This document shows, one piece after another, positions 25,001 to 59,766 of a stretch of 64,000 nucleotides of DNA; position 1 is the first letter of the stretch; every line of letters starts with the position of its first letter. Both the position numbers and the translations under genes were made by a program. This stretch comes from Naegleria gruberi. Taxonomy: Eukaryota. The stretch lies in the NCBI GenBank assembly GCA_000004985.1, contig GG738930.1. One strand, 5' to 3'. A model generated the notes under the pieces. That model saw only the letters and a list, made by a program, of their open reading frames with translations. It was not told where the DNA came from and ran no database searches.

Positions 25001-25705
25001 GCCTTCTTTAAAACCATTAAGGATAGAAAACTTGAATATGAATTCAAGAAAGTTGAAGCTCATAAGGATAAGGAAAATATCAAAGTTGATTTATTGGCAA
25101 AGAATGCAACTCTGAAACCTAAAATCTTTGATATCCGTAAACTACTCTTTAATCAATATATCCTCACAAAGAACGATATTATAATCTTTGACTATAAGAG
25201 GTTAACTACCTCACAACATTTAAGGCTAATGCTTGACAAGATAGAGAGTCACCCCAATCACATACCTAACCTAGATTGGAACTCTATCAACGTCAGCTAC
25301 CTTAAATCCCATTTGTCTCCTAAATCTAAATATTATATTTGGAGAAACTCTTCAAATGCCCACATCAATTTTGGTGAGGGTAAAAGTTTCTGTCATGATT
25401 GTAACACAGAATCTGACCTTAATCACTATATTCATGAATGCCCTGCTCTGGATAGTGCCAGATACTTTTGCTTGTCAAAAATATCTGATATTCTTGATCA
25501 GAGAGAGTGTAAACTCACTCATATTCAATTCAGACCAGAAAAGCATCACCATGTACTCTTCTTCCACCATTCTGGAACCACATTCTTCGAAGATGGATAC
25601 GTACAACAATACCCAGACATTGCAGAGAAATGGCCTGAGATCCAGGGAGCCATTTCTAACTTTGTCGGCCGCTCCTATAGATATTATTATATTGACTCAA
25701 TGTAA
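22021..25705 (+). CDS. LINE ORF2 polyprotein (APE endonuclease-RT-RNaseH), interrupted by a +1 frame change near 22361-22407
   Basis: The APE domain begins in frame 1 (22021-22407) and continues in frame 2 (22361 onward, SGDINIDTRNP). The frame-1 ORF begins at TTG, not ATG. An (AAT)n-rich frame-2 ORF at 21674-22024 overlaps the ORF1/ORF2 junction. Confidence 0.65.
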
Positions 25706-29933: not shown

Positions 29934-29983
29934 NNNNNNNNNNNNNNNNNNNNNNNNNNNNNNNNNNNNNNNNNNNNNNNNNN
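29934..29983. other. assembly gap (50 N placeholder)
   Basis: It separates the truncated hydrolase gene from the truncated cyclase paralogue; both are incomplete at this junction. Confidence 0.95.
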
Positions 29984-31976
29984 CTTCTGGTGTTGACAAT
30001 GATTTGTAATCTCTAATATAAGCAATGTATGAAGATTTACCATCTTTTAGAATGTGGGATACTCTGATTTCTACCGAGATGATCTTGCCTGACTTGGTTT
30101 CTCCCTTCACTTTCTTTACCATATTGAGAGTATTCTTATCTTTGGTTTTACATTTTTCCAAATAGCTGTCATGTTTGAGTCTATCCTTCTTATTACAAAT
30201 AATTTTGACATTTCTTCCAACAACTTCTTTAGCTTCGAAACCAAAAGTGGATGAGGCAGCCTTGTTAAAAACTTGAATAATTCCCTTGTCATTGATTGTA
30301 ATAACTGGAATAGTAATCATTTCTGTTACTGCTTGATTCAGTGAGTTGGTCATTTGTGAATATTTGCCATTTTCTGCTTGTTGAGCAAACCTCATGTATA
30401 TACAAAAGTGAGTTTCTTGTAATTTTGATATTGGGATAATCTTGGCGGATACTGAAAAGAATTGCTTGATTGTTGTTGCTTTGGCTCTCAAAGTTCTTAA
30501 CTGTGAAAGGGCCCTTCTTCTCTCCAGTTTTTCTTCCTCACTGATTTGATTGTAAGGTCGAATATCATCGAGATAGTTCTGGTCTGAACCAATTTTATCT
30601 GCCTTCAGAGTGCTATTCTCAGTTGGACCCAAGAATTCATAAATTGCCTGATGTAGTTCAACAGAAGCATCATCCAAAAACAATTCACTCACATGTTCCC
30701 CAAGAGCACTGAATGAAAAGACTCCAAATAAATCCTCGGCTTCCTTATTCAAATATTCTATTGAGCCAAGTTTGTCAAAAACAAGAACTGGAAATCCACA
30801 AGTCATGAATTGAGACACCAAATGATTCAACTGTACAAATTCTACCTGATGTGTAAATCCAACTTCTTCATTAATTTCTCTATCACTCAGTAGGGCAGTT
30901 TCTGTCGACCTCACAGACATAACAGAAACTTCGCTCACTGTATCAGGAAAATCATCAAATCCTTCATTCTTCGTTTTCATTTTGGAAAGGAATCTCTGAT
31001 TAATTGACTGTTTGTAGCCTTGATCGTTTCTTGACATTCCTCTTTCGAGTGGAGGTCTTGCTCTGGGCACAGATTGTGATCCCTCCCTCATCATTAAACT
31101 GTTTTCTCTCTGTAGTGGCCCTCTCTTTGTTGGAACATCAGACAAGGGTTTATCAGATAGCTCATATTCATTATTCTTCCTAGTAATAAAACTACTATTC
31201 TCTCTTTGTAACATTCCTCTCCTAGGAGCAGATGGTGCTGTTGTCATTGTAGAATTACCTCTCAATAGAGGAGGTGGTCTCGATAGTGTGCCATCGTTAT
31301 TCGTCAGCAGAGAAGAACCTTCCCTCCTTAACATTCCTCTTGGTTTTTGGGAGATAGTAGAATTTTCTCTTGTCAGTTTTGGAGCTACTCTCAACGATGA
31401 AGAAACTCCAACTTTAAGCATTGCAGAGGTATCCAAACCTTCAAATATGTTCCTAGAACTTGCTGTATTTTTCGACGATACCTCATACATGGATTGTTTT
31501 TTAGACATGAACTCATTAAGTGCTTTTTGATCTTCGTCTTCCTTCTCCTTTCTAGCAGAGGCAGGTGTTTCTGTTATTGTAAATGGAGCAAGAAAGTCTG
31601 AACCACCTACTCCATCATTATTTGGAATCCGTGTTGGTACTTTAGGTTTTACTGGACTAAACCCTACCAATACATTTCTCGAACTTTGAGTATTGAAAGC
31701 TCCAGGAGACGGTTTTGACTTTTTTGCTTGGAGAAACTCTTGGAGAGCCTTCTCATCCTCATCTTCATCATCCTTATTGTTTTGTTTTGTTGGGGAGGTT
31801 AGAGGTTTTTTAGGAGAAGTACTTTTAGAAAGAGCAGAAGCATCAAACGAAGCAAATATATTCCTCGAACTCTGATGATTAAAATTGGAAGAGGGTGAAT
31901 GAAGGTTTGCTGTCTTCTTCTTGGCTAGAAATTCCTGTAGAGCCTTATCGTCATCATCGTCATCATAATTTGTCAT
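29984..31976 (-). CDS. PAS-domain cyclase paralogue 2 (N-terminal regulatory region and PAS domains only; catalytic domain missing in the gap)
   Basis: ATG at 31976 (MTNYDDDDDDKALQEF...). It is collinear with paralogue 1 through ...YIRDYKSLSTPE, where the N run begins. The nucleotide sequence at 29984-30060 matches 15889-15965. Confidence 0.8.
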
Positions 31977-32975: not shown

Positions 32976-35280
32976 TTACTGTTTCATCAACTTGGATTGA
33001 ATAATTTTGGTGAGGTGTAAAATCTTATTGTTATCCTCTTTGTTTTCTTTCGTCAATTCGGACAAGTAAGACAATAAATAAAAGGCTCTATTATACAGGG
33101 CAGTCCACTTGGGATAACCAATCATTTCCCAACAACAAGCTTCTTTGGTCAACTCGATAGCCGACAAATACATTACATTGGTAATGTCTTTGCATTTTGA
33201 TGGCTCTAATAATTTGGTTTTGGAGTGTAGTTTTTCTGTCCTCTTGAAAACATCATTTAATAAATGATTCATGAATGACATGAGAGCTGTTTTGCGATCA
33301 GATGGTGGAATTCGAGAAAGAAAAGGGGTGCAGTTCTGTAAAAGTTGAGTTGATCTCAAGTAGAGAGCAAAAGATTCAGTTATTTTCGAGGTTCTTTCAA
33401 AATTGAGAGCCATCTCTGCAAGAACCCAACTGATTTGAAGATTTCGTTCTACATTATCCAAAGTTGGCTTGTCCTCTGGGGATGATGCTAGCTCTGAAAA
33501 ATCAAATATTACAATTGGATATTTTTCCAATGAGGATTCTATGGTATAAGTTTTAGAAATGTACAAATCTGGATTAGGTTCAAATTTTTCATCAAAGAGA
33601 ATAATTAAATTCTTCTTTTCTGTTGAATCAGTGAGGGATGGTGGTTGTTGAGTAGATGTTGATGATGATGAAGCAACAATTGGGGAAGGGGTAGGAGTTG
33701 AGTTTGTTGAGATATCAGTTGTTGAAATAATGATATCATCTGGAGTTGATGGTATTCCTTGAATTTCCAAAGGATCTATAATGTCATACTCTTCTTCCAA
33801 GCTCGAAAGTTGAATGACATTTGGTTCACTGCTCTTTCGTTGCTCGTTTCTAATATTTACAATGTAAGGATGATTGTAAAATTGATCGAAATCAAATCTT
33901 GAATTAGGATCAAATGTCAATAATCCTTTCAATAAATCAATCAATTCAGGCGAAGTGTCTCTAGTTGGAAAGGATGTTCCACTCATCACTCTCCTATATT
34001 GTTGAGCCATATCGTTTGCTATGAAAGGTAAATTACCATAGCATAATAAATAAATAATTACACCAATTGACCATAAATCAGCCTTAATATCATAGGTAAC
34101 TTGTTTTCCAGCCAAGTAATGCATAATTTCAGGTCTTTGCTCCAATGAATAAAATAGAAATTACAAAAACTTACGCCATAAACATTGGAGTTCCACAAAC
34201 TGTCTGAGCTAATTTGTTTGTATCCAATTCCTTTGCAAGTCCCAAATCTGCAATCTTTAACGTTCCAAAATCAATATCATAATCATCATCTCCATTATCT
34301 ATTATTTCCATTGGTTTGGAAAAGAGTAAATTTGCTGGTTTTAAATCTCTAAACAACAAATTAGTTCAAAATGCAAGCAATATAACCTACCTATGCATAA
34401 TCTGTTTTCTATTCAAATATTCAACTCCTTCAGATAATTGGTAAATCAACTTTTTCAAAAATCTCTCTTTCATTCTTCCATTATTATTGAACACGAGTGG
34501 TGATCTCTTCTTAATCAAATCATTCAAATCACCTCCTCCACAAAATTCCAACACAACATAACAATTGTGATGCGTCTCTAAAAATTCAACCATTCTAATG
34601 CAATAATCCGAATCCAAATCTCTCATAATCTTAATTTCACTCGAAAAGTATTTGAGATTGGAAGAATTCAAAATTTTCTTATCAATCACCTTGATGGCAA
34701 CTTGTTGCTTTGTTATTGAATGCATTCCTTCATAAACACTTGCATAACTTCCTGATCCCAACTTGCTATCAATAAATATCAAAAAGTCACCAACTTTCTT
34801 TGCCTTTTCCTTCTTGTCTGATTGATAAACAAGACCTCCACTTGATTGTACACGATGAGTGGTTGCCACTCTCTTCTTCTTTTGTTCTGGTGTTACAACT
34901 ACAGTTGTTCCTGATGATGCAGGTGATGATTTACTATTTACATTTCTTGGTGATGATGATGGAGATGCTGATGAAGGCACTTTGAATTCGGAAAGGTTGA
35001 TATCAGATGATGATCGAATAGAATCTTCCTCTCCCACCTTGACAAGTCTTGATGACTTGTTCGTTTCATCCAATTTACGTGTTATTGTTGTTGATACTCC
35101 AATAGTTTCAATTGTTGTTGTTGTTGTTGCTGTTGCTGTTGTGGCAGCAGAATCAAATGAATTATTGCCATCACTACTACCCGATGATCCATTATTATTG
35201 TCATCATCCACCACTACTGAATCATCATTATTGTTTTCTTCAACGATGAAAATTCCTTCACGAATTCGTTTTGTTGACAT
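32976..35280 (-). CDS. serine/threonine protein kinase with long C-terminal non-catalytic region; join(32976..34134,34175..34348,34391..35280), ~740 aa
   Basis: Subdomains LGSGSYASVYEG, AIKVI, HRDLKPANLL, DLGLA and GTPMFMAPEI are reconstituted across two short introns (42 nt GTAGGT..TTTAG and 40 nt GTAAGT..CAAAG), both in phase. ATG at 35280. Confidence 0.8.
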
Positions 35281-40539: not shown

Positions 40540-41394
40540 TCTATCCCTAGGTAAAATAATTCGGTTCTGTTCAATCTTGACATCTTTTACTTCGAAGAGA
40601 GTTGACAACCTATTCAACCGTATGAGGTTTCCAGAAGAAAAAATTGCCATAATATTCCATTCTTCATTGCCAGTTTCAATGATTCGTTTCATGTCCAATC
40701 CTGTTAGATTTGTTTCATGAGAATTTGAAGAATCTCTTCTTGCAAATTGAAATATCTTTTCCGAGTCTATTAGATGGGAAATAGTGGAAATACTGACCAT
40801 ACTTTTTAATGCAGTAAAGCTTGGGTCAAACAATATGGACAATAAAAAAGTTAAAAGTGGTAGACAAGTTGGAGCAAGATCATATTTCCTGAATGTAAAG
40901 CATGGTTTCAATTTGACTTGATTATTGTGTAGAGTTGATATTTTCGAGAGGGATATTATCTTGCAGAGTGAAACAAGAGTCGATAATTCATTTTGAATTT
41001 CATCTTGATTGTTACCATATTTATATTCTAAAAATGTCATAATATCAAAATTAAATATAAATTCCAACGAGTTTTCGCCTCTCCTTGGTAGTAGAGAGAA
41101 AAGATATTGAAACACTCTCACATAATCAATACAATCATTATCCAAAAATTCATATTCACTTCCACCAATAAAATTCCTAATTAAATTAAAATTAGAAATG
41201 GCCTTCTCCAATCCAATCAACACATCTTCCAAGTAGTATTTCTTTACAAATATATATTTGTAAATATATGAACTTGTATGAATAGCAATGTACCATGTTC
41301 TACTGACAAGGCTACATTTAATTTGATCCGATAGGTCCAAATATTCCGTGATGACTGATACGAGGTCTTGATGAAGAACGTCTTGTTGATTCAT
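40528..41394 (-). CDS. F-box domain protein
   Basis: N-terminal [25 protein letters not shown] is a typical F-box. ATG at 41394 overlaps the stop of the upstream chromodomain gene (ATGA). Confidence 0.6.
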
Positions 41395-42284
41395 TTTTTC
41401 TTACGATTTTCCTGTTCAAAATTGTGGATCAAATCTTCTGAAATGTTCTCAAGTGGTTCCCAAGTATTATCAGAGTCAGGATAACCAGCCCACTTAACAA
41501 GGTATTCAACCTTTTTCCTTCTTGTTCTCTTACCCACTAATTTTTCTACTCTGTATTGTCCATCGTCCAGCTCGTCATCACTTTCTAAAGTTGGTGGTTC
41601 AATAACTTGTGCTGTTTTTGGTTTTCTGATTGGTGTTCTCTTTGGTGTTTCTGTTTTGGCCTTTTTGGAAGAAGAAGCTCCACCTCTCTTGATGGATTTA
41701 CGTTTCTTTGGAACTTCTTCCTCTGATATTGGAGTTGTTACTTCTGTTTCGAGTCGTTTCTTACTAGGGGTTGAAGGAGGAGGTAAAATTGAAGTTGATG
41801 GTCCTGGTTGTTCACCCAGAACTTCCTTGATAAGTGAAGACTGTGCTTCGTGAACACCTGTCACTTCTGAAAAGTAATTGAATATATTTGCTAATCCAAT
41901 TGGCAGATCAACACCTCTATCATCCTGATTTAAATAATCCAAAATCAACAATTGATTATAATATTGAAAATGTTGGTCTCTGGTAAAACTGGAACCAATT
42001 TTTCTCTTTTCGATATCTAAATAATATTTAGCACAAGTTAATAGTTTTGTCTGACTATTAATCAAAGCTCCCAACATTGGAGTATCCGATCCACTTGTTG
42101 TTGTTGTTCCATTACTACTTGAAGTTCCAGCTTTTCTTCTACTAGTTGCAGTTACTGTTGTTGTTGTTGAAGATTTTGATGAAGAAGATTTACTAGCAGG
42201 AAGCTTAACTTCAGGTTCCTCGTCTTCACTACTACTACTGAGTGTGTAAGTTGCCGAAGCTTCTTTCGATCGTTTTGTAGCCAT
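41391..42284 (-). CDS. chromodomain protein (HP1-like chromo domain at C-terminus)
   Basis: C-terminal [38 protein letters not shown] matches the chromo-domain consensus. Ser/Thr/Lys-rich N-terminus. Confidence 0.7.
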
Positions 42285-42389: not shown

Positions 42390-44872
42390 TTATTCCAAAA
42401 TGTTGAGAGTTGGTGTTTGAGCTTGTTGTTCACATAATCGAAGTAAATGTTGGGTTGGAAGGTCATTTGGGTTGACTTGTTGATATTCTCGAAATAGAGG
42501 AATGGCTTCTTCAAATTTACCTTCAAACAGAAGAGAGCAACCTTGGTTGTAAACTCCCCATTTTAAATATCTTTCCTTCTTATTGAAATGTGAATGTAAA
42601 TCTTTGGTCGAGTTAAGTAAATGAGTAGAGATTGGAAACTTACCATCATCAGTTTCTTGTTTCATTTCAATTGAATCTCCCAATTCATATAATAAACAAT
42701 CTTTTGTCAATGAATTTGACATAGAAACACTTCCAATTTCCCAATTTTCTTGGTTGAAATCATCTAGAGAGGAAAAGAAATAATCCTCCCTTAATTCTCT
42801 TCTATCCAGGAATCTAGTCTCACACCTAGTGTGGCAATATTGCTTGATGTGCTGTGTGATAATGATTGGAACTTTGAGTTTCTTGCCAAATCTTATTATT
42901 TGATCCAAATTATGTCTCGTGCTTGAAAAAATTGTAAAGTGCTTAATGTCTTTAGTTCCAATATTTCCACAAAATGTTTTTTGAGCACAAATAGCAAATC
43001 TGAAATTAATCAATTCACAAATTTCCTCCCTCAATAGTCCACTTTCTCTCCACTTGTTTTCTTTCACGTTGGTTAACTTTTCTTGTAAAAGTTGAGCGCT
43101 GGCAACTGCTTTTTCTTCGTGATTGTTCTGGTTAATAGTAGTATTATAAGCAATAGTTAAAATATCATTCTCAAAGTTGACCAAATGGCCAGATGTAGTC
43201 CTAATCACTGTGTCCACTTGGCTAAATAAATCTCCCAACAATGAAACTAGATGAGTTGGGTTTCCTTCTAAGGATAACAACCATTCATTCAATCCTTCAA
43301 TGTACATTTGATTGATACTAATCTTTCTTGGTTCCAAATAGAGAGAAAATTTGCATTTCAATTTAGATGATTTTTTCTTACTGTCCAAAATATTAGATAA
43401 TTTTGAAGCTTTCCCTCCTTCAAGTGAATTATCTTCAATGCTTGAAAATGGTTGACTTTTTTCCAATTCAACAGAATCTGAAGTCATTGTTCTAGGTGAA
43501 AAGGAATCCAACGAAAGTCTAGTTGCAGTTTCTTGTTCTCCATTTNNNNNNNNNNNNNNNNNNNNNNNNNNNNNNNNNNNNNNNNNNNNNNNNNNNNNNN
43601 NNNNNNNNNNNNNNNNNNNNNNNNNNNNNNNNNNNNNNNNNNNNNNNNNNNNNNNNNNNNNNNNNNNNNNNNNNNNNNNNNNNNNNNNNNNNNNNNNNNN
43701 NNNNNNNNNNNNNNNNNNNNNNNNNNNNNNNNNNNNNNNNNNNNNNNNNNNNNNNNNNNNNNNNNNNNNNNNNNNNNNNNNNNNNNNNNNNNNNNNNNNN
43801 NNNNNNNNNNNNNNNNNNNNNNNNNNNNNNNNNNNNNNNNNNNNNNNNNNNNNNNNNNNNNNNNNNNNNNNNNNNNNNNNNNNNNNNNNNNNNNNNNNNN
43901 NNNNNNNNNNNNNNNNNNNNNNNNNNNNNNNNNNNNNNNNNNNNNNNNNNNNNNNNNNNNNNNNNNNNNNNNNNNNNNNNNNNNNNNNNNNNNNNNNNNN
44001 NNNNNNNNNNNNNNNNNNNNNNNNNNNNNNNNNNNNNNNNNNNNNNNNNNNNNNNNNNNNNNNNNNNNNNNNNNNNNNNNNNNNNNNNNNNNNNNNNNNN
44101 NNNNNNNNNNNNNNNNNNNNNNNNNNNNNNNNNNNNNNNNNNNNNNNNNNNNNNNNNNNNNNNNNNNNNNNNNNNNNNNNNNNNNNNNNNNNNNNNNNNN
44201 NNNNNNNNNNNNNNNNNNNNNNNNNNNNNNNNNNNNNNNNNNNNNNNNNNNNNNNNNNNNNNNNNNNNNNNNNNNNNNNNNNNNNNNNNNNNNNNNNNNN
44301 NNNNNNNNNNNNNNNNNNNNNNNNNNNNNNNNNNNNNNNNNNNNNNNNNNNNNNNNNNNNNNNNNNNNNNNNNNNNNNNNNNNNNNNNNNNNNNNNNNNN
44401 NNNNNNNNNNNNNNNNNNNNNNNNNNNNNNNNNNNNNNNNNNNNNNNNNNNNNNNNNNNNNNNNNNNNNNNNNNNNNNNNNNNNNNNNNNNNNNNNNNNN
44501 NNNNNNNNNNNNNNNNNNNNNNNNNNNNNNNNNNNNNNNNNNNNNNNNNNNNNNNNNNNNNNNNNNNNNNNNNNNNNNNNNNNNNNNNNNNNNNNNNNNN
44601 NNNNNNNNNNNNNNNNNNNNNNNNATAACAAACACACTCATTAATGTCAAACTCGAAATTACTATAAGCATACAATTTCTTATAGAAATTTGGCAATTGC
44701 TCGCCGATAAGAAGAAGACGGAAGAGTTTGTATCCGAATTATTGTATTTTCTATTCCAATCATTGTCTTCATAACTAAATCTCCCATTAGAATAAATATC
44801 ATGTTGAGGTAAATCAAAGGCAAGAGGTAAAACCTTACGAGAGGACGTTGATGATCGCCTTGTGAGTGGCAT
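42390..44872 (-). CDS. cyclase-homology-domain protein with degenerate catalytic residues plus C-terminal TPR-like region; interrupted by a 1079-N gap
   Basis: The C-terminal part (42390-43545) aligns to a class III cyclase domain (HLVSLLGDLFSQVDTVIRTTSGHLVNFENDILTIAY; FRFAICAQKTFCGNIG; FTIFSSTRHNLDQI) but lacks the first metal-binding Asp and the N/R transition-state residues. A TPR-like helix pair follows. The N-terminal fragment is at 44625-44872. Confidence 0.5.
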
Positions 44873-45116: not shown

Positions 45117-48100
45117 TTAAGCTTCTGTTTTTGAGGGAGAGATTGTTGGTGAAGGGTTGAGATTGTTGGTTGTTTCTGGTAAATTTTGTTGGGTGTTGGA
45201 TGTTTGATTGAGTTTGAGAACAGTCAATTCGTCAACTGAACTTGATTCTAATAGATTTGTTGGAGATTGGGAGTCTATCTTGAGTTCTTGAATTTCTTGA
45301 ACTGTTGGCAATGGGTTTGCATGATGTTTGTCCTTTAACAGGTATGTTTTCATTTCACCCTTTCCTTTGACATAGATTGATTCTCTTTCTTCAAATTCAT
45401 ATCCCAAATCGAATACTCTTTCATAGGTTGCTCTTGAAATTTGAATTCTTCCTGGAACACCTGTTGATTCCATTCGAGAGGCTGTGTTGATTGTATCACC
45501 CCACAAATCGTAAGCAAACTTTTTAGTTCCAATAACACCTCCAACACATGGTCCTGTGTGCATTCCAATTCTCAAATTCACTTCCTTTCCAAATTTAATA
45601 TTGAAATCTCTCAAGAATGAATAAACTGAGATTGCAAACTTTAACATTCTCTCAGGGTGGTCAGATGATTTTGAAGAGTGAGTTCCTGAAACTGCAAAGT
45701 AAGCATCTCCAATAGTTTTGATCTTGTCAATCAAATATTTCTCAGTCAACTTGTCAAATTCATTCACAATTGTGTTCAACATCATCACCAATTGATCTGC
45801 TTCCATTCCTGAAGACATTTTGGTGAAACCAACCATATCAGAAAAGAAAATCGTAACATCTGGGAACTTTTCTGCGATATAGGTTTCTCCTTGTTTCAAT
45901 CTATTAGCAACTGGCAATGGCAAAATATTCAACAATAACTCTTCACTTTTCTTCTTTTCCTCACCTAGCAACAATGAATGTTTCTTCAATTGAGTAACAT
46001 CCTTCACAAAACAGGACAAGATTGGTTTACCAAGGTACTGACTGATAGAAATCGACACAAATGCAGGGAAAGTGGTCTTGTTCTTTCTCAATCCTGTCAC
46101 TTCGAATGAATCTGCTGAAACACCTGTTTCCTCATTGCAAACTTTCATGGAATCAATAAGAACTGTAATCTTTTCCACATTCAATTCTGTAAATAGAGTT
46201 TCTAATCGAATTCCCAAAATCTCTTCCTTCTTATAACCAAACATATCTTCACTGGAAGGATTGAACATTACAACCTCTCCCTTTGGATTACAGATAATGC
46301 TTCCATCTACACCACTATTCAAAATTGATCTTGTCATGTCCATATTTTCATCATCCACTTCAAGTCCAGACATGACTGCATTTCTTCTCTTTATCAATTT
46401 CTTCAATTTTTGAGCTGAGGATGGAACTCTATAGTTTAAAATATAGTCAATCATATCTGGTATCATGTCAACAACATCTTTAGGAATATAATTCAACATT
46501 ATTCTTAATGATTGAATTTCTCTAAAGAGATCCATCATCGCTAGATAGGAAAGCCAACCAAACACAAGAACTGCTAATGAGCCCAGAATGGTTGAAATGA
46601 TTGCCAAGTAATCTTCTGATTGTTTTGTATTCTGTACATATGTGCTTGTGAAATCGTAAATAAGCTGAACTGCAACCAGAGCTGGATAGTACAGATATGT
46701 AAAGTACTGATCAGTTTCGTATGATTTTGTGTAAAACCTTGCTTTTAAATCCTCATTAATCTCTGCTGCTAGATCTTGAAAAGAGTGAATCAACTTTTCT
46801 AAACCATAACATGAAACTCTTGTCTTCACCAAACTGTCTGGGAGAATATCCAAAGCCGGACCACTTGTGTAATTAACCATTGAAGTATTTGAATCACACT
46901 TATAGGCAAGTAATTTGTCAATATCAGAATATTTTCCAAAAAGAGAATTGGAATAGCCCAACTCTGGAGCTCCTCTTACAGCATAAGACCAGGACATTGT
47001 AATATTCATTAATTGCTTTTGATTCCGCAAGTGTAACTCATCGGGAGTGTAATCTGACATATTTGATGCAATAATCATCTCGGCCAACTTGAAATTCACA
47101 GAAGTTACTGAACTAAGAACGTAGTTTACAGAAGCAGCAGTTTTCATTGTAATAAACTGATTCTGTTTGTTGAGTTGGAATTCGTATATCTGAATAGGAC
47201 TCACCAATGCTACTACAAAAAATGTGATTGCAGTGTATATGATAATCTTATTCTTTGGACTTAGTACAGTTTCTCCGTAATCTCCAGTTTTAGTAGATGT
47301 CAAAGTGTGATATAGCTTACCAACCTCATCCTTTTGAATCTTTCTAAAGATATGAAAAATGACCTGTCTTATTTGAACAAAGTATTGACTCAACATGGAT
47401 ATATAGAACCCAACCAATACAAAATAGCATCCCAATAGAATTCCTGAACTCCATAAAAACACTTGTGAGAGGGTATCTGCTCTTTCCATGGAAAATGTCA
47501 AAAAGTATTGGCAAAACCCATCAAATGCATCGGTCATCGTCTCTCTATTGTACAGGAAGAACAAGACTGGGAAGTTTGTGGCAGTGTTATTCAATTGAAC
47601 AGGATAAGAAAACTGACTGATAACTGTTGGAGCTTGAGCTGCAAACATTGCAATGAAATCCAACACTGACACATTCATGGTTGTGTAAACCTGAGAGGAT
47701 TCTCCAACTACCTGCTTGTTTGGAATTTTGTAAGTCCACTTTTGAGAGATGAAGTCATCTGTAATAGATGGAAAGAATGACTCTGTGGATGCACTCATCA
47801 CATTCTTAACTAAATTTAAAACATAGTTCGCTTGCAGTGTTGCCAAATGCTGAACTGGTCCAGCAGTGGTTTCGTTCAAGTACCTGTATCTTGCTTGCAA
47901 TGTTCTAACATGATTTGCCATAATGCTTGGAGCACCAGCTATTGAGCAAATCTTTTCCTCTAGTGCTGTTCTACTCGTAAACTCTGATGAAACAATCAAA
48001 CTAAGAATCAACATGAATAGAATAATGAGAATGGAAATTACAATAAATGGAAGAAAAAGCATAAAGAATGATTTCCTGCGCTCTGGCATGTTGATAGAAT

Positions 48101-48687
48101 TTCTGTAGAATGCTTCCTCCCTCATAGTTTCTTCCATTCTTGCACTGATTGAATCCCAATTATCCACAACTTCATCGAATGAAACAGCATTCTTCATGGC
48201 AGCATTGGACTTACTGTGCTTCATTAATTGAGATGTAGAAGTAGCATAGGGAAGAACTCTATTTTCTGGTTGTTTTTTCTTAGTTGACTTTGCTTTCTCT
48301 TCCTCAATTTGGTTGGCTTCTTCATAAAGTTCTGCAGCCATTTCCAGTTCAAATTTGAAAGTTTCTAAGAAGTGAGCATATGCTCTCATTAAAGTCTTGT
48401 TATTCATATTGGAACTCATACTATTCTTGTATGCATTTTCACAATAATGTGTAAGATTGTGAGCTTGTCTGTTGATGTCCTCTAATTTTGTCTCTGAAGG
48501 ATTTTCGCTTGAAAGCTCTTTAAAGAAATCCTGATGTAGATTAATGATCTTTGCTTGTCTCTTCTCAAGTTTTTCCAATATTTTTTGAAGTTCAAAACTC
48601 AAGGCATCACCATCTTGTGATTGCACTTCAATTTCCTTACTTCTCAAATAGAAATGGAATAGTTGGACGAAACTTGGACTATGTCTC
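45117..48687 (-). CDS. receptor-type adenylyl/guanylyl cyclase: TM1, ~430-aa extracellular region, TM2, PAS, class III cyclase domain (first codons lie in the gap)
   Basis: Catalytic motifs VTIFFSDMVGFTKMSS, KIKTIGDAYFAVSG, GMHTGPCVGGVIG and YDLWGDTINTASRMEST. TM helices FLPFIVISILIILFMLILSLIV and LAIISTILGSLAVLVFGWLSYL. The ORF continues open (…RHSPSFVQLFHFYLRSKEIE) into the N run at 48688. Confidence 0.85.
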
Positions 48688-49877
48688 NNNNNNNNNNNNN
48701 NNNNNNNNNNNNNNNNNNNNNNNNNNNNNNNNNNNNNNNNNNNNNNNNNNNNNNNNNNNNNNNNNNNNNNNNNNNNNNNNNNNNNNNNNNNNNNNNNNNN
48801 NNNNNNNNNNNNNNNNNNNNNNNNNNNNNNNNNNNNNNNNNNNNNNNNNNNNNNNNNNNNNNNNNNNNNNNNNNNNNNNNNNNNNNNNNNNNNNNNNNNN
48901 NNNNNNNNNNNNNNNNNNNNNNNNNNNNNNNNNNNNNNNNNNNNNNNNNNNNNNNNNNNNNNNNNNNNNNNNNNNNNNNNNNNNNNNNNNNNNNNNNNNN
49001 NNNNNNNNNNNNNNNNNNNNNNNNNNNNNNNNNNNNNNNNNNNNNNNNNNNNNNNNNNNNNNNNNNNNNNNNNNNNNNNNNNNNNNNNNNNNNNNNNNNN
49101 NNNNNNNNNNNNNNNNNNNNNNNNNNNNNNNNNNNNNNNNNNNNNNNNNNNNNNNNNNNNNNNNNNNNNNNNNNNNNNNNNNNNNNNNNNNNNNNNNNNN
49201 NNNNNNNNNNNNNNNNNNNNNNNNNNNNNNNNNNNNNNNNNNNNNNNNNNNNNNNNNNNNNNNNNNNNNNNNNNNNNNNNNNNNNNNNNNNNNNNNNNNN
49301 NNNNNNNNNNNNNNNNNNNNNNNNNNNNNNNNNNNNNNNNNNNNNNNNNNNNNNNNNNNNNNNNNNNNNNNNNNNNNNNNNNNNNNNNNNNNNNNNNNNN
49401 NNNNNNNNNNNNNNNNNNNNNNNNNNNNNNNNNNNNNNNNNNNNNNNNNNNNNNNNNNNNNNNNNNNNNNNNNNNNNNNNNNNNNNNNNNNNNNNNNNNN
49501 NNNNNNNNNNNNNNNNNNNNNNNNNNNNNNNNNNNNNNNNNNNNNNNNNNNNNNNNNNNNNNNNNNNNNNNNNNNNNNNNNNNNNNNNNNNNNNNNNNNN
49601 NNNNNNNNNNNNNNNNNNNNNNNNNNNNNNNNNNNNNNNNNNNNNNNNNNNNNNNNNNNNNNNNNNNNNNNNNNNNNNNNNNNNNNNNNNNNNNNNNNNN
49701 NNNNNNNNNNNNNNNNNNNNNNNNNNNNNNNNNNNNNNNNNNNNNNNNNNNNNNNNNNNNNNNNNNNNNNNNNNNNNNNNNNNNNNNNNNNNNNNNNNNN
49801 NNNNNNNNNNNNNNNNNNNNNNNNNNNNNNNNNNNNNNNNNNNNNNNNNNNNNNNNNNNNNNNNNNNNNNNNNNNNN
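48688..49877. other. assembly gap (1190 N)
   Basis: It hides the 5' end of the cyclase gene at 45117-48687 and the 3' two-thirds of its upstream paralogue. Confidence 0.95.
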
Positions 49878-51100
49878 CAGTCAGCTCTCTCCATAGAAGT
49901 ATCCAAAAATGATCTACAAAACCAATCAAAAGCCTCAGACATTGTCTCTCTATTGTAGAGGAAGAAAAGAACTGGAAAATTTGTTGAAGTGTCGTTCAGT
50001 TGGGCAGGAGAGCTCAATTGAGAAATTGCTCTACCAGCATGATTTTCAAACATGTTTAAAAATTCCAAAACAGATACATTCATGGTAGAATAGAGTTGTG
50101 TAGATTCTCCTACAACTTGTTTGTTTGGAACCTTGTACAAAAACTTTTGGGCAATAAAATCTTCAGTAACAGCTGGGAAGAATGATGAGGAAGATGCACT
50201 CAATACATTATTAATCAATGTTGTAACATAGCTGGTCTGAACAGTAGCTAAGGCATGAGCGGTACTTGCTGAAGATTCATTCAAATATCTATACCTAGCT
50301 TGAATAGAACGAATGTGATTGGCCATAATGCTTGGAGCACCAGCTATTGAGCAAATCTTTTCTTCTAACACTGTTCTACTGGTAAATTCTGACGAAAAGA
50401 CCAGAGACATTGTTAATAAAATTAATAAAACAAGGAATGAAACAATCACAAACGGTAAAAATGTGAAATAATAGGATTTTCTGTGTTCTGGAGTGTTGAT
50501 TGAATTTCTATAGAAGGCTTCTTGTTTCATTGATTCTTCCATTCTTGCACTGATCGAATCCCAGTTATCTACAACTTCATCGAATGATACTCCATGTTTC
50601 AGAGTGTCTGATTTCCTTCTTTTCATAAGTGATGACTCTTCTGAGGCACTGGTATAAGGAACTACTCTATTACTTTTTGAATGAGACTGCTTGTTGGTTT
50701 TGGATTTCTCTTCCTCAATTTGATTAGCCTCCTCATATAATTCATTGGCCACTTCAATCTCAAATCTAAATATCTCCAAAAAGTATGCGTAAGCTCTCAA
50801 CAGGGTCTTGTTGTTCATATTGGTATACATGCAATTCTTGTATGCATTTTCACAAAATATTATCAAATTATTGGATTTTCTGTTAATCTTTTCAAGTTTG
50901 TCCTCAGAAGGATTTTCACTGGAAAGCTCTTTGAAAAATTCCTGGTGCAATGCCAGTATCTGAGATTGTTTCTTATCGAGTCTCTCTAATAATTTTTTAA
51001 CTTCATAACTAACATTAGCATAATTCTCAGAGTTGGCTTCAATCTCTTTGCATCTCAAAAAGTAATGGAAAACTTGAACGAAATTTGGGTTTTGTTTCAA
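49878..51100 (-). CDS. receptor-type cyclase paralogue (N-terminal ~400 aa only; remainder in the gap)
   Basis: Collinear with the N-terminus of the 45117-48687 gene (KEIEANSE.../KEIEVQSQ..., LHQEFFKELSSENPSE, TM helix, SRTVLEEKICSIAGAPSIMANH). The track start at 51100 is TTG. Confidence 0.75.
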
Positions 51101-52782
51101 ACTCTTCTCATTATTTCAACTGCAAGGGCTGTGTTTCCACTTTCTGTGGTGCTAGCTGGGGCATTATTACCAACAAAGCTTGCTGCCATGATTAACAAGT
51201 TGACATCTGTAACACTACGTAAGTTTGCTGATTTGATGAATTTTCTTGCCAACTCCAAATCTGAACCTTCTCCACCCTTTGTTTTCAATGTGTTAAATTT
51301 AATGAACATGATAATACTCTTGTTCATCTTTTTTGTTGTCAATTCAGAGACAATATTGGATACGGAATGGCTGTCTGAAAAGTATTCGTTCAATACTGTT
51401 CTTATCGATCTCATCTTTAGTCTTGTATAAATTTCCATAATCACATATCCAAGTATGAAACCAACAATCATCAGAGCCAATGTTATTCCTGTTAAGATTC
51501 CTCCAATTAATTCCTTGTCAATGGTTGAATCTCTTGTGACAAGCAAACAAACAAGAGGTCCTAAACTTCCCAAAGCCCTTGAAACTCCAACTCCACAATA
51601 AACACAATTCTCCCACCTTCTGTAGAAGGGTATTGCCACAAATAGTGAAACAATAAAGAGAATGCTCAACAAGAATTTGATACCAGCGGAAATAACACAC
51701 AACTCATAAGTTAAAACTACTGTCAGTATGATACCAACTTGGTTATTGAGTAACAAGAGACATAGTGGATAAATTCTATCTAGTACGAATACTGTCCTGG
51801 TTCCTCTTGTTGGAATAGTTTCATATACAAGATAAAAACCTAATACAGAAATACCTAGTGTCAAAATTGCCCCTATACATCCAATAACAATGAGACCAAT
51901 GTTAACAGAGGCTGTAAATAATGGTGTTGTGAAATGTTTCATATAAATTTCGGTTGATGATGATGTGGAGAAGATATTCATGTTAACAGCTAGAGGGTAT
52001 GTATGTACAAAAAGCATGAATGGTGAAAGTATAATTACAATTATTATGAATAGTCTGGATACCATTTTGATTTTGTCATTGTATCTGCTTCCATTCTTGA
52101 TTCCTACTCTGTATGCATAAAAGCAAATCAAACATAGAATTTCAACGAATAGCCATATTGCAGAAAATGTATAAACTAGCTCATAAGGATAATATTGTAT
52201 TCCAAAATCAAGAGGAAAATGCAAAACTCTCCAAATCCAACCACCAACAACACCCCACATTGCTCCACTACTCTCCTCACTCGCAGTCGTTGTTATTGAA
52301 CAGGTTATCAAAGAATAGTATATCATGTAAATATGTAACATAATCCATGCGACTGCTTGGTATTTGCTCTTGATGAAAGATTCATTCCTCTTGAAAGAAA
52401 CAATAAATTCAAATATGGAATTACGAAATGCTAGTAATGGTGATTGAGGATTTGTAAAGGCTGATGATGAATAACTGGTATTACTTCCCACATAGGAAGC
52501 TTCACCCTTATTCATTGGTTGATTTGCAACTTCTTCATCTTGCGAGTTTTTGATGGGTTTTCCCCAATATTGGTCATCATCTTCATCTTCCATCAAATTC
52601 TTTGTGCTTCCATGTGAGGATGGTGTTGGAATAGGTGAGGAATGATGTTGTTGATGTTGAGAATGATGTGGATCTAAATGATGCACAGATGTATTGCTCT
52701 TGTCTCGCCTTATCGAGATGGGCTGAGGATCATCACCATTGCCCAATGTTGTTGTTGTTGTATTGATGTGAGGGTGAGACAT
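51097..52782 (-). CDS. hypothetical polytopic membrane protein (~10 TM helices)
   Basis: 561-aa ORF with ATG at 52782. His/Gln-rich N-terminus followed by many hydrophobic helices. Its stop overlaps the TTG start of the next ORF. Confidence 0.5.
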   Translation of the reverse strand: MSHPHINTTTTTLGNGDDPQPISIRRDKSNTSVHHLDPHHSQHQQHHSSPIPTPSSHGSTKNLMEDEDDDQYWGKPIKNSQDEEVANQPMNKGEASYVGSNTSYSSSAFTNPQSPLLAFRNSIFEFIVSFKRNESFIKSKYQAVAWIMLHIYMIYYSLITCSITTTASEESSGAMWGVVGGWIWRVLHFPLDFGIQYYPYELVYTFSAIWLFVEILCLICFYAYRVGIKNGSRYNDKIKMVSRLFIIIVIILSPFMLFVHTYPLAVNMNIFSTSSSTEIYMKHFTTPLFTASVNIGLIVIGCIGAILTLGISVLGFYLVYETIPTRGTRTVFVLDRIYPLCLLLLNNQVGIILTVVLTYELCVISAGIKFLLSILFIVSLFVAIPFYRRWENCVYCGVGVSRALGSLGPLVCLLVTRDSTIDKELIGGILTGITLALMIVGFILGYVIMEIYTRLKMRSIRTVLNEYFSDSHSVSNIVSELTTKKMNKSIIMFIKFNTLKTKGGEGSDLELARKFIKSANLRSVTDVNLLIMAASFVGNNAPASTTESGNTALAVEIMRRV

Positions 52783-57094: not shown

Positions 57095-57255
57095 GTTTAA
57101 TAAAAATCTATTCGAAAAAAGTTTAGTTTCGAATTGGATTCTTTTCCTTTTTACTAAATTTGATTCAAACATACCAATTTTGGAGTCGTACTGGAACCTG
57201 TAATTAGATGTTGTGATAATTGGAAAGTTTTGAAATTGCGTTTCCAATAAAAAAA

Positions 57256-59766
57256 ATGCAACCTAGACTATTCTTCATCTTTGTTTGTCTCATTCTCATT
57301 TTCGAATATTCAACTTGCAATGATATTAGAATCATCAAACCAATCAATCTTCAAAGTCAACTACAAGATATCTCTGAACCATTCTCCATCATTTCTATTC
57401 GAAAGTATTACAGTTTAATCATTAATAATATAGCTCCAATCATGGGCAAAAGTGCAGAATTTCTTGACGATTCAACAACTCTTGCTTCATTCTCCAACCT
57501 TTCCTGCGTTTTAAATATTCCATCCAATGGTGAATTAGCTCCATATGACAAGTCAATTGTCAACTCGATAGAAACGACAAGCTCTGTATGTTCATCTTTC
57601 ATTTTGGTTGAAAGAGGAAACATGCAAATCGATGCAGCACATCATGCCTACCTAGTTTTGGGCGAAGAACCAACTTTAATGATTTCTCCGAATGATTTAA
57701 TTCCACTTTGGTCAATTGTGTTGAAAAATGCAATGTTTTATGAGAATACTCGATTTGGAATTTGGAATAGGACAATTGACCAGGTGTTTACATTATCACC
57801 GATATATTTTACACCTTATTCTGTTGAATATGTATTGGATAATCAATTAGAAAGTGAAAGAAATGAAATTGTGAAAGAATTGGAAGAGGAAATTTTGGTT
57901 GACTTGGAACTTTTTGAAATAGTTCATCGAATTCAATTAGCGGAAGGGAGAGTAATGGGATTTAGTTCGATTAGAGTGGACGAAACATTTTTTTGTAATT
58001 CAACATTACATAATTCAACTTTTGTGGAAGAATATCACAATGCCTTATATAGAATTGATTTCTATTTATATATAATACTTAATCTAGGTTTAGTCAATTC
58101 AAGTGGTACAATTTCTGGTATTCAGGATATTGATTTGGTATTTAGTGATGGGAAATTTCGTAAATTTAATCCAAATTTCATATTAGAATCTATTCGAAAC
58201 GTATTACAACGAGGAGGTTTCAACAATTATCTATCCTATTCTCATCCTAACTCTTCTTTCGACATGCACTACTTTTCAAACTTACAAAAATCAAATATAC
58301 GATCAGTTTCTGAACTCATGATTCATTCCTACTGTTTCAGTTATTACAATCACTATGCCTCTCAATACTATTTCAGAGATAGCTCTCTATTTTACCTAAT
58401 CTTCAATGATGTGATTTACTTTCTACTAGCATTCACTGGAATTGCCCTCCTCCTTCTCAACATCACAAGTTATTCATTGGATTTCAATCTTTTCCTAAAG
58501 AAGAGAATTTTACTTCCCCTCATGGGACCTCCTACCTTAATATTGATAAGTTTGTGTTATACAGTTGCGATCAGATCAAAGTTATCGGTTGCAACTTATT
58601 GGATTCTCATGATTATTATTGTGTTTCCAGTTCCAGTTTTGATAGGTTCATATATGGTAACACTTTTTAGGTTTTCCTATTTAAAGAATATGGATTTGTG
58701 GCAGAAAGTTGTTTTCAAACATCCCAAAATTCAAAGACATTTGGCATCTGTCAAATCCTCAGTGGTTATTTCATTAATTTTGACATTGGCAGGTTTCGTC
58801 ATTTGTGCAGCTCCTGTCATTGGTGCTTCTCTCGCTGTTTTATATAGCAGTTTGAGTGTTCCACAGGAGATGTTCATTATCATGTTTGCTGCTGAGATTT
58901 TGTACATGTTAATTCTTGCAGTAATTTTCTTTACTGTTGATTTGAAGAATAATGGCGCCAAAATTATTAGACGAAAGGGAATAGGATACTTTTTCTTCTT
59001 TGATGATCCGTTTTATTATAGAATTGACTTGTTAATTATGATGGTTATGATGTTGTTGATTATTCCAATAATTGTTGGTTCTTTGAATGATACACTTTCG
59101 TATTTTATTGTTCGAAAGGTATTCTCATTGATTTTCTTCATGATGTTTTATTCGATAATTGGTGGAACTGTTACAATATTTTATTGGATTGGCAAAGTGA
59201 AACGATTATTATTTAGGAATAAGGAAGAAGAACCATTAGTTACACAATTAGAAAGTTTGTTGGAAGACGAAACTTTCAGAGAAATATTCAAATCTTATTC
59301 AAAGAATGAATTTTCAATGGAGAATATTCTTCTATATGAGGAATTGGAAAGATTGAGAAAACAAAGGAAATGTACACTGCAAGATTTGAAAAATTTATTC
59401 GAAACCTTTCTTTCAGCAACAGCAGTTCACGAAGTCAATTTTCCATCAGGAATTAAAAAGAGTTATCAAGAAATTATGGACTCTTACAAGGACGACATTT
59501 CAGATAATAGTGAAGGCAGTAATCTTTCAAAATTTGTTTCGAATTTAGCAAACCTAAACCTTCAGGATCAATTAAAACACCAAACCAAAAAGGAAAATTC
59601 AAGAATTGAGCAAGTTTTCGAACTACTTAGACCTGATCTACTGAAAAACATGTTAGACACCTTTTCTCGATTAGAAACCACTCCAGAATTTATCAATTGG
59701 AAGAAAATGAAAGAAATTCAAGTTTGTGAACTTGGAGAAGAAAAATCAAAGGAAGAAAATGTTTAA
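57256..59766 (+). CDS. 7TM-RGS protein: signal peptide, ~380-aa extracellular domain, seven TM helices, C-terminal RGS domain
   Basis: The track start at 57220 is TTG; the ATG at 57256 begins the signal peptide MQPRLFFIFVCLILIF. Seven hydrophobic helices lie between residues ~395 and 660. RGS signature: FREIFKSYSKNEFSMENILLYEELERL ... FETFLSATAVHEVNFPSGIKKSYQEIM ... LLRPDLLKNMLDTFSRL. Confidence 0.7.
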   Translation: MQPRLFFIFVCLILIFEYSTCNDIRIIKPINLQSQLQDISEPFSIISIRKYYSLIINNIAPIMGKSAEFLDDSTTLASFSNLSCVLNIPSNGELAPYDKSIVNSIETTSSVCSSFILVERGNMQIDAAHHAYLVLGEEPTLMISPNDLIPLWSIVLKNAMFYENTRFGIWNRTIDQVFTLSPIYFTPYSVEYVLDNQLESERNEIVKELEEEILVDLELFEIVHRIQLAEGRVMGFSSIRVDETFFCNSTLHNSTFVEEYHNALYRIDFYLYIILNLGLVNSSGTISGIQDIDLVFSDGKFRKFNPNFILESIRNVLQRGGFNNYLSYSHPNSSFDMHYFSNLQKSNIRSVSELMIHSYCFSYYNHYASQYYFRDSSLFYLIFNDVIYFLLAFTGIALLLLNITSYSLDFNLFLKKRILLPLMGPPTLILISLCYTVAIRSKLSVATYWILMIIIVFPVPVLIGSYMVTLFRFSYLKNMDLWQKVVFKHPKIQRHLASVKSSVVISLILTLAGFVICAAPVIGASLAVLYSSLSVPQEMFIIMFAAEILYMLILAVIFFTVDLKNNGAKIIRRKGIGYFFFFDDPFYYRIDLLIMMVMMLLIIPIIVGSLNDTLSYFIVRKVFSLIFFMMFYSIIGGTVTIFYWIGKVKRLLFRNKEEEPLVTQLESLLEDETFREIFKSYSKNEFSMENILLYEELERLRKQRKCTLQDLKNLFETFLSATAVHEVNFPSGIKKSYQEIMDSYKDDISDNSEGSNLSKFVSNLANLNLQDQLKHQTKKENSRIEQVFELLRPDLLKNMLDTFSRLETTPEFINWKKMKEIQVCELGEEKSKEENV

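What the first reader, a model, noticed from the sequence alone, without database searches (positions are those of the whole stretch)
45117..51100. Head-to-tail tandem pair of two-TM receptor-type cyclases with a large extracellular domain
Both genes are on the minus strand and share a conserved coiled N-terminus, a TM helix, a ~430-aa extracytoplasmic region of unknown fold with Cys residues and N-glycosylation sequons, a second TM helix, a PAS domain and a class III catalytic domain. The extracellular region is a candidate ligand-binding sensor, and its family is not evident from sequence. The 1190-N gap removes the catalytic half of the upstream copy and the first codons of the downstream copy.
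Basis: partly seen in the sequence, partly recalled or inferred. Interest (0 to 1): 0.55.

Follow-up and report, generated by a model that had tools for sequence, protein, structure and literature searches.

The report
Tandem 12-TM PAS adenylyl cyclase genes
Two neighbouring, gap-broken genes belong to a Naegleria-type family of large multi-pass membrane adenylyl cyclases, not to a two-helix receptor class; the supposed single big outside domain is two helical-bundle loops, and the family is annotated but has no characterisation that I could find.

Summary
The two minus-strand paralogues are real: 65.5% amino-acid identity over 403 aa, dN 0.23, dS saturated. The downstream copy carries a TPR_TmcB helical domain, a PAS domain and a class III cyclase domain with all canonical adenylyl-cyclase residues.

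1. The "~430-aa extracellular region" contains two more conserved TM helices. The module has four TM helices and two extracytoplasmic loops of about 176 and 194 aa. Each loop is all-helical and has one conserved Cys pair.
2. The 561-aa, 8-TM ORF just upstream (51100-52782) is the N-terminus of the upstream gene. It is colinear with the N-termini of 1400-1740-aa Naegleria homologues and is cut off only by a one-base break in a T-run at 51099-51101.

The family layout is 8 TM, TPR_TmcB, 4 TM with two loops, PAS, then cyclase. Every named homologue is from Naegleria gruberi, N. fowleri or N. lovaniensis. One is annotated "membrane bound adenylate/guanylate cyclase with PAS domain".

The loops resemble bacterial four-helix-bundle sensors only generically. 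They are not Cache, CHASE or PBP folds. The 8-TM domain has no structural neighbour in the PDB.

Two full-length genes would need about 4.3 kb in the gap, not 1190 bases, so what the gap holds remains open. This is an ordinary new member of a known family.

The parts
51100..52782 (-). N-terminal domain of the upstream gene. It has a disordered ~110-aa head, an 8-TM bundle (about residues 140-469, nt 51376-52365) and a cytosolic helical stretch leading into the TPR.
   Evidence: phmmer aligns residues 81-559 colinearly with residues 40-533 of N. gruberi XP_002673480 (P0002), E 9e-75, and with more than 40 other family members. There are eight family-conserved hydropathy peaks. AF2 gives pLDDT 79.5, pTM 0.77, and mostly >90 in the TM region.
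51099..51101 (-). T-run where the reading frame of the upstream gene breaks. Reading TTT as TTTT gives ...EIMRRV-LKQNPNF..., joining ORF 51100-52782 to ORF 49880-51100.
   Evidence: The sequence is. The two frames abut with no residue missing relative to homologues. The joined peptide fits the family consensus AxxLLxKAxKxxxNxxxxFxIxxRxKExE.
50699..51052 (-). TPR_TmcB helical domain of the upstream copy.
   Evidence: Pfam PF25474, E 2.7e-12, 47.1 bits against a cutoff of 27.
49880..50452 (-). Upstream copy: TM9 (50396-50452) and most of extracytoplasmic loop 1, cut at ...SMERAD by the gap.
   Evidence: Hydropathy. Loop 1 is 70% identical to the downstream copy.
48688..49877 (.). Assembly gap of 1190 N.
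   Evidence: Two full-length genes would need about 4.3 kb here: 785 codons plus stop, an intergenic spacer, and about 561 codons.
48288..48638 (-). TPR_TmcB helical domain of the downstream copy. The frame is open up to the gap at 48686.
   Evidence: Pfam PF25474, E 4.4e-14. AF2 shows five helices, H6-137.
47991..48059 (-). TM9 of the downstream copy (ORF2 numbering 210-232).
   Evidence: Family-mean hydropathy 2.54. K/R-rich sequence precedes it.
47463..47990 (-). Extracytoplasmic loop 1 (233-408). It is a helical bundle with a beta-hairpin, the Cys247/Cys392 pair and the N338-V-S sequon.
   Evidence: AF2. Each Cys is present in 32 of 34 members and the sequon in 31 of 34.
47190..47462 (-). 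TM10 (409-432), a cytosolic K/R-rich linker with the KDEVGKxYH motif (433-480), and TM11 (481-499).
   Evidence: K452 and G456 are nearly invariant.
46608..47189 (-). Extracytoplasmic loop 2 (500-693). It is a helical bundle with an insertion carrying Cys597/Cys626.
   Evidence: AF2. The Cys residues are present in 27-29 of 32 members.
46551..46607 (-). TM12 (694-712). It continues as a cytosolic helix to about residue 733.
45990..46307 (-). PAS domain.
   Evidence: PAS_9, E 8e-16. The closest PDB sequences are FixL heme-PAS domains, E 9e-10, but the proximal His is absent.
45333..45938 (-). Cyclase-transducer-like helix (LLLNILPLPVANRLK) and the class III catalytic domain. Key residues in ORF2 numbering: D950, D994, K990, D1060, N1067, R1071, R1039, K1109.
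   Evidence: PF00211, E 8e-60. Aligned to AC9 C1 and C2.
45117..45119 (-). Stop codon of the downstream gene.

Best explanation
The locus holds two adjacent paralogues of a Naegleria-lineage family of very large multi-pass membrane adenylyl cyclases.

Family layout, shown by homology and modelling:
- a cytosolic disordered head;
- an 8-TM bundle;
- a cytosolic TPR_TmcB helical domain;
- a 4-TM module whose TM9-TM10 and TM11-TM12 pairs each carry a ~180-190-aa extracytoplasmic helical bundle, built largely from extensions of the TM helices and carrying one conserved Cys pair;
- a cytosolic PAS domain;
- a cyclase-transducer helix;
- one class III (IIIa-like) catalytic domain.

The upstream gene is ORF 51100-52782 joined to ORF 49880-51100 across a single-base frame break. 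It then runs into the gap. The downstream gene emerges from the gap at its TPR domain and is complete to its stop at 45117.

Mechanism, inferred:
- One chain carries both metal Asp residues, the Lys/Asp adenine pair and the Asn/Arg transition-state pair. The enzyme should therefore act as a homodimer making cAMP at two symmetric sites.
- The membrane module or the PAS domain probably sets the activity. A conformational change would pass down TM12 and the PAS-to-catalytic-domain helix, as in other class III cyclases that have a transducer element.
- The two outside bundles are the most likely sensing surfaces.
- The ligand is unknown.
For: - Paralogy and selection.
- Domains.
- An exhaustive phmmer search gave 85 relatives. 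The full-length ones are 1400-1800 aa, and the query's first 760 aa align to about positions 500-1300 of them.
- Their Pfam layout is TPR_TmcB, PAS, Guanylate_cyc, in 32, 28 and 23 of 34 members respectively.
- ORF 51100-52782 matches their N-termini colinearly, and the junction is seamless.
- Four plus eight hydropathy peaks are conserved, and charge follows the positive-inside rule.
- AF2 models: pLDDT 82.4 and pTM 0.69 for ORF2 residues 1-773; 79.5 and 0.77 for the 8-TM ORF.
- Conserved Cys pairs and a conserved sequon occur only in the two loops.
- All catalytic residues and the LLxNILPxxVAxxLK helix are present.
- Named relatives are all Naegleria.
Against: - The frame break at 51099-51101 could be a real mutation.
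- A 1190-base gap is about 3 kb too short for two full-length genes, so at least one gene may differ from the family layout, or the gap size is wrong.
- TM topology, disulfides and glycosylation are predictions.
- No model coordinates could be inspected, so the packing of the four TM helices was not seen directly.
- No ligand, localisation or activity data exist.
- The structural match of the loops to bacterial sensors is generic. Designed bundles and spectrin score equally well, and Foldseek finds nothing significant.
Confidence: 0.72

Rival explanations
1. Each gene encodes a two-TM receptor cyclase with one ~430-aa extracellular ligand-binding domain of novel fold.
For: The first and last hydrophobic segments are the strongest on a casual read. 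Cys residues and sequons lie between them.
Against: - Two further hydrophobic segments score 2.0-2.6 and are conserved in position in every homologue.
- A K/R-rich conserved linker lies between those two segments.
- The conserved Cys residues and sequon avoid that linker.
- AF2 models long continuous helices through both segments.
- An 8-TM domain sits upstream in the family.
Confidence: 0.04
2. The architecture is the same, but the 12-TM TmcB-like module is not a ligand receptor. It could be a transporter or channel, or a targeting and scaffolding module, fused to a cyclase. Other protist cyclases are fused to channel-like or P4-ATPase-like modules (recalled from memory). The PAS domain would then be the real sensor.
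For: - The 8-TM bundle is the best-modelled part, with pLDDT >90, and carries conserved polar motifs such as PFxRRxENS.
- The loops match sensors only generically.
- The TPR domain suggests protein-protein interaction.
- A Chlamydomonas 'Tiny macrocysts protein B-related' protein is listed among cilia proteins (PMC11244166).
- One N. gruberi relative is named FM179.
Against: - Both loops keep a conserved Cys pair and a helical-bundle shape, which is typical of sensor ectodomains.
- The loops are only ~20% identical among paralogues while the TPR is 33%, as expected if specificities diversify.
Confidence: 0.25
3. The upstream copy is a recently inactivated pseudogene, because the frameshift is real, or it is only a fragment. 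Only the downstream gene would then be functional.
For: There is a one-base frame break in the assembly. The gap is too short for the rest of the gene.
Against: - 561 + 407 codons are otherwise free of stops.
- dN 0.23 against saturated dS indicates purifying selection over most of the time since the duplication.
- The ortholog-like fragment P0001 is 75% identical and intact through TM10.
- The break lies in a homopolymer, where an assembly error is a plausible cause.
Confidence: 0.2
4. The gap size is about right, so the partition differs from the family norm. Either the upstream gene ends soon after TM12 without PAS and cyclase while the downstream gene starts just before its TPR without an 8-TM domain, or both are one giant ORF with a duplicated TPR-4TM module.
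For: The arithmetic fits. The 308 residues up to TM12 plus a ~90-aa linker come to about 398 codons, against the 1190/3 = 397 codons the gap could hold.
Against: - No verified family member lacks the 8-TM domain. The one short model (FM179, 1179 aa) starts in the middle of the conserved pre-TPR helices, so it is probably N-terminally truncated.
- 23 of 34 members carry the cyclase, and the rest are mostly partial models.
- Gap sizes are estimates.
Confidence: 0.15

Closest known systems
Naegleria multi-pass PAS cyclases, for example N. gruberi XP_002674931 'membrane bound adenylate/guanylate cyclase with PAS domain', XP_002673480, and N. fowleri XP_044558499
   Same: Homology is colinear over the 8-TM domain, TPR_TmcB, the 4-TM two-loop module, PAS and cyclase. 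The loop Cys pairs and the sequon are the same.
   Different: These proteins are only 20-32% identical to the window's genes. The window pair forms its own subgroup together with a soil fragment (75% and 61% identity). No family member has published experimental work that I could find.
Dictyostelium TmcB/TmcC (Pfam PF25474, TPR_TmcB)
   Same: The cytosolic helical domain matches the Pfam model above its threshold in both copies.
   Different: No TmcB sequence could be retrieved here, so I could not test whether the whole 12-TM module is shared. From memory, TmcB has no PAS or cyclase output.
Bacterial four-helix-bundle sensor domains, TM-4HB-TM (Tar/Tsr, PcaY, TorS; the NIT domain of NasR)
   Different: - There is no sequence-family match.
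- Designed bundles and spectrin repeats score equally well.
- There are two bundles per chain.
- The bundles have conserved Cys pairs and a conserved glycosylation sequon.
- The host is a eukaryote and the output is a cyclase.
Mammalian membrane adenylyl cyclases (AC9, AC8, AC5)
   Same: They give the best PDB sequence matches to the catalytic domain, E 2e-73. The transducer-helix motif is shared, and the TM count is also about 12.
   Different: Mammalian enzymes have 6+6 TM helices and two different catalytic halves (C1/C2) in one chain. Here there are 8+4 TM helices of unrelated sequence and one complete catalytic domain per chain, which implies a homodimer.
Receptor-type and module-fused protist cyclases: trypanosome single-TM cyclases, Dictyostelium ACG, channel- or P4-ATPase-fused cyclases of ciliates and apicomplexans (named from memory)
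   Same: A class III cyclase is coupled to a large membrane or extracellular module in a lineage with expanded cyclase numbers. Naegleria has at least 81 cyclases (PMC9928731).
   Different: The membrane module is of a different kind. No PBP-like, CHASE-like, channel or ATPase fold was detected.

Membership tests
Class III nucleotidyl cyclase (PF00211) | Profile match above the curated threshold | tested here: met
   202 bits against a cutoff of 21.9, profile positions 3-182 of 183.
Class III nucleotidyl cyclase (PF00211) | Catalytic residues: two metal-binding Asp, a transition-state Asn and Arg, and phosphate-binding Arg and Lys | tested here: met
   D950, D994, N1067, R1071, R1039 and K1109 align to the AC9 C1/C2 residues. 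All lie in one chain, so a homodimer is implied.
Adenylyl (not guanylyl) cyclase specificity | A Lys/Asp substrate-defining pair instead of Glu/Cys | tested here: met
   K990 lies in KIKTIGD and D1060 in YDLWGD. Enzymatic specificity was not measured.
PAS domain | Profile match above the threshold | tested here: met
   PAS_9, 58.6 bits against a cutoff of 27.
FixL/DosP-type heme PAS oxygen sensor | A proximal His that ligates heme (BjFixL His200) | tested here: not met
   These are the best PDB sequence hits (E 9e-10), but the His aligns to Ile and there is no His nearby.
TPR_TmcB (PF25474) | Profile match above the threshold | tested here: met
   52.9 and 47.1 bits against a cutoff of 27 in the two copies. 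32 of 34 relatives match.
Naegleria 12-TM PAS cyclase family | Colinear 8-TM domain, TPR, 4-TM two-loop module, PAS and cyclase | tested here: met
   This holds for the composite of the two copies. Neither copy is visible end to end because of the gap.
Two-TM receptor-type cyclase | Exactly two TM helices flanking one ectodomain | tested here: not met
   There are four conserved TM segments after the TPR and eight before it.
Cache / CHASE / periplasmic-binding-protein sensor domains | An alpha/beta fold, or a match to the family profile | tested here: not met
4HB_MCP / TarH / NIT / CHASE3 helical sensor families | A sequence-profile match | tested here: not met
   No hit for either loop at E<=10, and none in any of 34 relatives.
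4HB_MCP / TarH / NIT / CHASE3 helical sensor families | An antiparallel four-helix bundle continuous with the flanking TM helices | tested here: inconclusive
Mammalian-type tmAC | Two catalytic domains (C1, C2), each preceded by 6 TM helices | tested here: not met
   There is a single catalytic domain, and the TM arrangement is 8+4.

The most novel reading that the evidence does not exclude
The TmcB-like module is a genuine extracellular-signal receptor. Its two helical bundles, each with a conserved Cys pair, act like tandem chemoreceptor-type sensors and gate a homodimeric adenylyl cyclase through TM12 and the PAS domain, possibly in the flagellar membrane. That would define a eukaryotic receptor-cyclase class with bacterial-style four-helix-bundle sensing and an 8-TM domain of a fold not yet solved.
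Probability: 0.2. Interest if true: 0.6.

Novelty: new member of a known kind. Interest (0 to 1): 0.3.

Why it matters
The practical value is a corrected gene model. The work gives a 12-TM architecture, a pinpointed one-base frame break, and a warning that the gap is probably under-sized.

More broadly, the family is a large, uncharacterised branch of the Naegleria cyclase expansion. It has two structured outside loops and an 8-TM domain with no solved structural neighbour. It is therefore a reasonable target for anyone studying how amoeboflagellates sense their surroundings through cAMP. Nothing here overturns current understanding.

Tried and rejected
- **Word-indexed homologue searches.** Three searches returned almost nothing: none, one fragment, and none. 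Only the exhaustive search worked.
- **afdb50 fold library.** It was unavailable.
- **Metagenome scans.** Two scans for an orthologous locus that could bridge the gap found nothing.
- **Exact look-ups.** Window proteins and N. gruberi P0002 are not on record. An N. fowleri relative is on record, and its neighbours are unrelated genes, so it is not in tandem.
- **Internal duplication.** hhalign of TM9-loop1-TM10 against TM11-loop2-TM12 gave probability 45% and E 2e-4 over 219 columns, which is suggestive only.
- **Heme-PAS idea.** Rejected because the proximal His is missing.
- **LOV-type PAS.** Rejected on reading the sequence, which lacks the NCRFLQ motif.
- **Intron or programmed frameshift at 51100.** Judged unlikely. 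The ORFs overlap by 4 nt, no residues are missing, and there is no slippery heptamer.
- **FM179 as a natural short form.** The 1179-aa N. gruberi FM179 is probably not a natural form without the 8-TM domain. Its model starts inside the conserved pre-TPR helices, and a 51%-identical relative has the 8-TM domain.
Full report
**Numbering.** 'ORF2 numbering' counts residues of the downstream copy from the first complete codon after the gap (48686). This is ORF listing numbering +13.

**What is in the sequence**

The window is gene-dense with about 35% G+C. It has long ORFs, occasional introns and six runs of N, so it looks like a eukaryotic scaffold.

On the minus strand, an ORF runs from the gap edge at 48686 to a stop at 45117. 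A second ORF runs from 51100 into the gap at 49878. The N-run is exactly 1190 bases, at 48688-49877.

The two ORFs overlap over 403 residues at 65.5% identity. Nucleotide identity is 69%, dN is 0.23 and dS is saturated. They are therefore old paralogues kept under purifying selection, not alleles or an assembly duplication.

Pfam places TPR_TmcB at the N-terminus of both copies. It places PAS_9 and Guanylate_cyc in the downstream copy.

**Correction 1: four TM helices and two loops, not two helices and one ectodomain**

- Kyte-Doolittle scanning finds four hydrophobic segments after the TPR, at ORF2 numbering 214-232, 409-427, 481-499 and 694-712.
- The same four segments occur at equivalent positions in every full-length homologue.
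- They stand out in family-averaged hydropathy with values of 2.2-2.6.
- K+R content is 15-19% before TM9, between TM10 and TM11, and after TM12. It is only 6-8% in the two long loops. This fits the positive-inside rule.
- The middle linker carries the nearly invariant KDxxGKxYH motif.
- Conserved Cys residues occur only in the loops. C247 and C392 are each present in 32 of 34 members. C597 and C626 are present in 27-29 of 32. The conserved sequon N338-V-S, present in 31 of 34, is also in a loop. One plausible reading is one disulfide per loop and a lumenal or extracellular location.
- An AlphaFold2 model of residues 1-773, built on 34 sequences, has pLDDT 82.4 and pTM 0.69. It is almost entirely helical. 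Very long helices (205-247, 372-449, 477-539, 693-733) run from the membrane segments into the loops.

**Correction 2: the upstream gene starts at 52782, not 51100**

The exhaustive search returned 85 relatives. In the full-length ones (1400-1800 aa), the query's first ~760 residues align to about positions 500-1300.

Their Pfam layout is uniform: TPR_TmcB at about 520-690, PAS at about 1250-1450, then the cyclase domain.

The 561-aa ORF at 51100-52782 has eight hydrophobic segments. It aligns colinearly with the N-terminal ~500 residues of more than 40 of these proteins. One example is residues 81-559 against 40-533 of N. gruberi XP_002673480, with E 9e-75.

That protein's residue 537 aligns with the first residue of the TPR-containing ORF. 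No residue is missing at the junction.

The two frames overlap by 4 nt at a TTT run (51099-51101). One extra T would give ...AVEIMRRV-LKQNPNF..., which fits the family consensus AxxLLxKAxKxxxN. I cannot tell whether this is an assembly error or a real mutation. The otherwise clean 968 codons make an error or a very recent event more likely.

**Fold searches**

- Designed helical bundles, spectrin repeats and ribosome-recycling factor are interleaved at the same scores.
- Foldseek finds nothing at E<=0.001. Tweety-homologue channels, which also build an outside bundle from TM extensions, appear only at E of about 1.
- Pfam finds no family in either loop even at E<=10, nor in any of 34 relatives.

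The loops are therefore structured helical bundles that resemble four-helix-bundle sensors in shape. Membership of any such family is not shown. Cache, CHASE and PBP folds are excluded.

**Output domains**

- The catalytic domain matches AC9, AC8 and AC5 best (E 2e-73). It carries both metal Asp residues (D950, D994), the adenine pair (K990, D1060), N1067/R1071, R1039 and K1109. It is preceded by an LLLNILPLPVANRLK transducer-type helix.
- One complete set of residues per chain implies a homodimeric adenylyl cyclase.
- The PAS domain is closest in sequence to the FixL and DosP heme PAS domains (E 9e-10). However, the heme-ligating His aligns to Ile. Its cofactor or ligand is unknown.

**Who else has it**

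- Every named relative is from Naegleria gruberi, N. fowleri or N. lovaniensis. The names are 'predicted protein', 'adenylate/guanylate cyclase', 'membrane bound adenylate/guanylate cyclase with PAS domain', 'TmcB/TmcC TPR repeats domain-containing protein', and in one case 'FM179'.
- Unnamed fragments come from environmental assemblies.
- The nearest relative, a soil-derived fragment, is 75% identical to the upstream copy and 61% to the downstream copy. It continues past the gap edge into TM10 and the cytosolic linker. The duplication therefore likely predates that species split, and the upstream lineage is a real gene.
- The window itself is probably from N. gruberi. This is an inference from the gapped scaffold style, from the paralogues being N. 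gruberi proteins, and from N. gruberi loci being absent from the exact look-up while N. fowleri is present.
- A published survey notes at least 81 cyclases in Naegleria (PMC9928731).

**The gap**

Relative to the downstream copy, the upstream gene lacks 785 codons. Relative to the upstream copy, the downstream gene lacks about 561 codons. With a spacer, two full-length genes need about 4.3 kb, not 1190 bases.

Either the gap is under-sized or the partition differs from the family norm. The only short family model, FM179, appears N-terminally truncated rather than naturally short. I therefore favour an under-sized gap, but this is not settled.

**Verdict**

This is a real tandem pair and a real membrane PAS adenylyl cyclase, but of a 12-TM, two-loop architecture that is already present and annotated in Naegleria genomes. 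The sensing role of the loops is plausible but unproven. It is a new member of a known kind, of modest interest.

Noticed in passing
window 15214-18369 (-): A 1051-aa ORF with two PAS regions and a class III cyclase domain (E 5e-44). It has no hydrophobic segment, so it is a soluble PAS cyclase. The window therefore holds several cyclase genes of different architectures.
   Followed up: partly
window 29919-31976 (-), gap 29934-29983: A 685-aa ORF with two PAS domains whose 3' end overlaps a 50-N gap (the ORF's apparent stop lies beyond it). The next ORF downstream (28614-29870) has a weak GH5 cellulase match. The PAS protein may be missing its C-terminal output domain.
   Followed up: no
window 42390-44872 (-), gap 43546-44624: This is the gene immediately downstream of the pair and is broken by a 1079-N gap. 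Its C-terminal part has a weak, probably degenerate cyclase-like match (E 5e-3) followed by a TPR. It may be a pseudo-cyclase.
   Followed up: partly
window 22361-25705 (+) and 41391-42284 (-): A 1114-aa ORF carries reverse transcriptase and RNase H domains, so it is a retroelement. A separate 297-aa ORF ends in a chromodomain.
   Followed up: no
window 57220-59766 (+) and 13161-14882 (+): Two RGS-domain proteins. The first has many hydrophobic segments before the RGS domain, like the seven-transmembrane RGS proteins described for N. fowleri (PMC9283941).
   Followed up: partly
window 32976-34145 and 34387-35280 (-): A protein kinase domain is split between two ORFs about 240 nt apart, which implies an intron. 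Introns therefore do occur in this genome, although the cyclase ORFs have none.
   Followed up: no
P0004 (N. gruberi XP_002679716, 'FM179'): This family member carries the name FM179, which I take from memory to be a flagellar-motility label from the N. gruberi genome paper. A Chlamydomonas 'Tiny macrocysts protein B-related' protein is listed among cilia proteins (PMC11244166). Together these hint that TmcB-like membrane proteins may be ciliary.
   Followed up: partly
window 51376-52365 (-), 8-TM domain: The outside loops of the 8-TM domain carry strongly conserved motifs in the family, for example WGxxGxW...NYPxTF...PY. A cytosolic PFxRRxENS motif lies between TM6 and TM7. Their role is unknown.
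   Followed up: no
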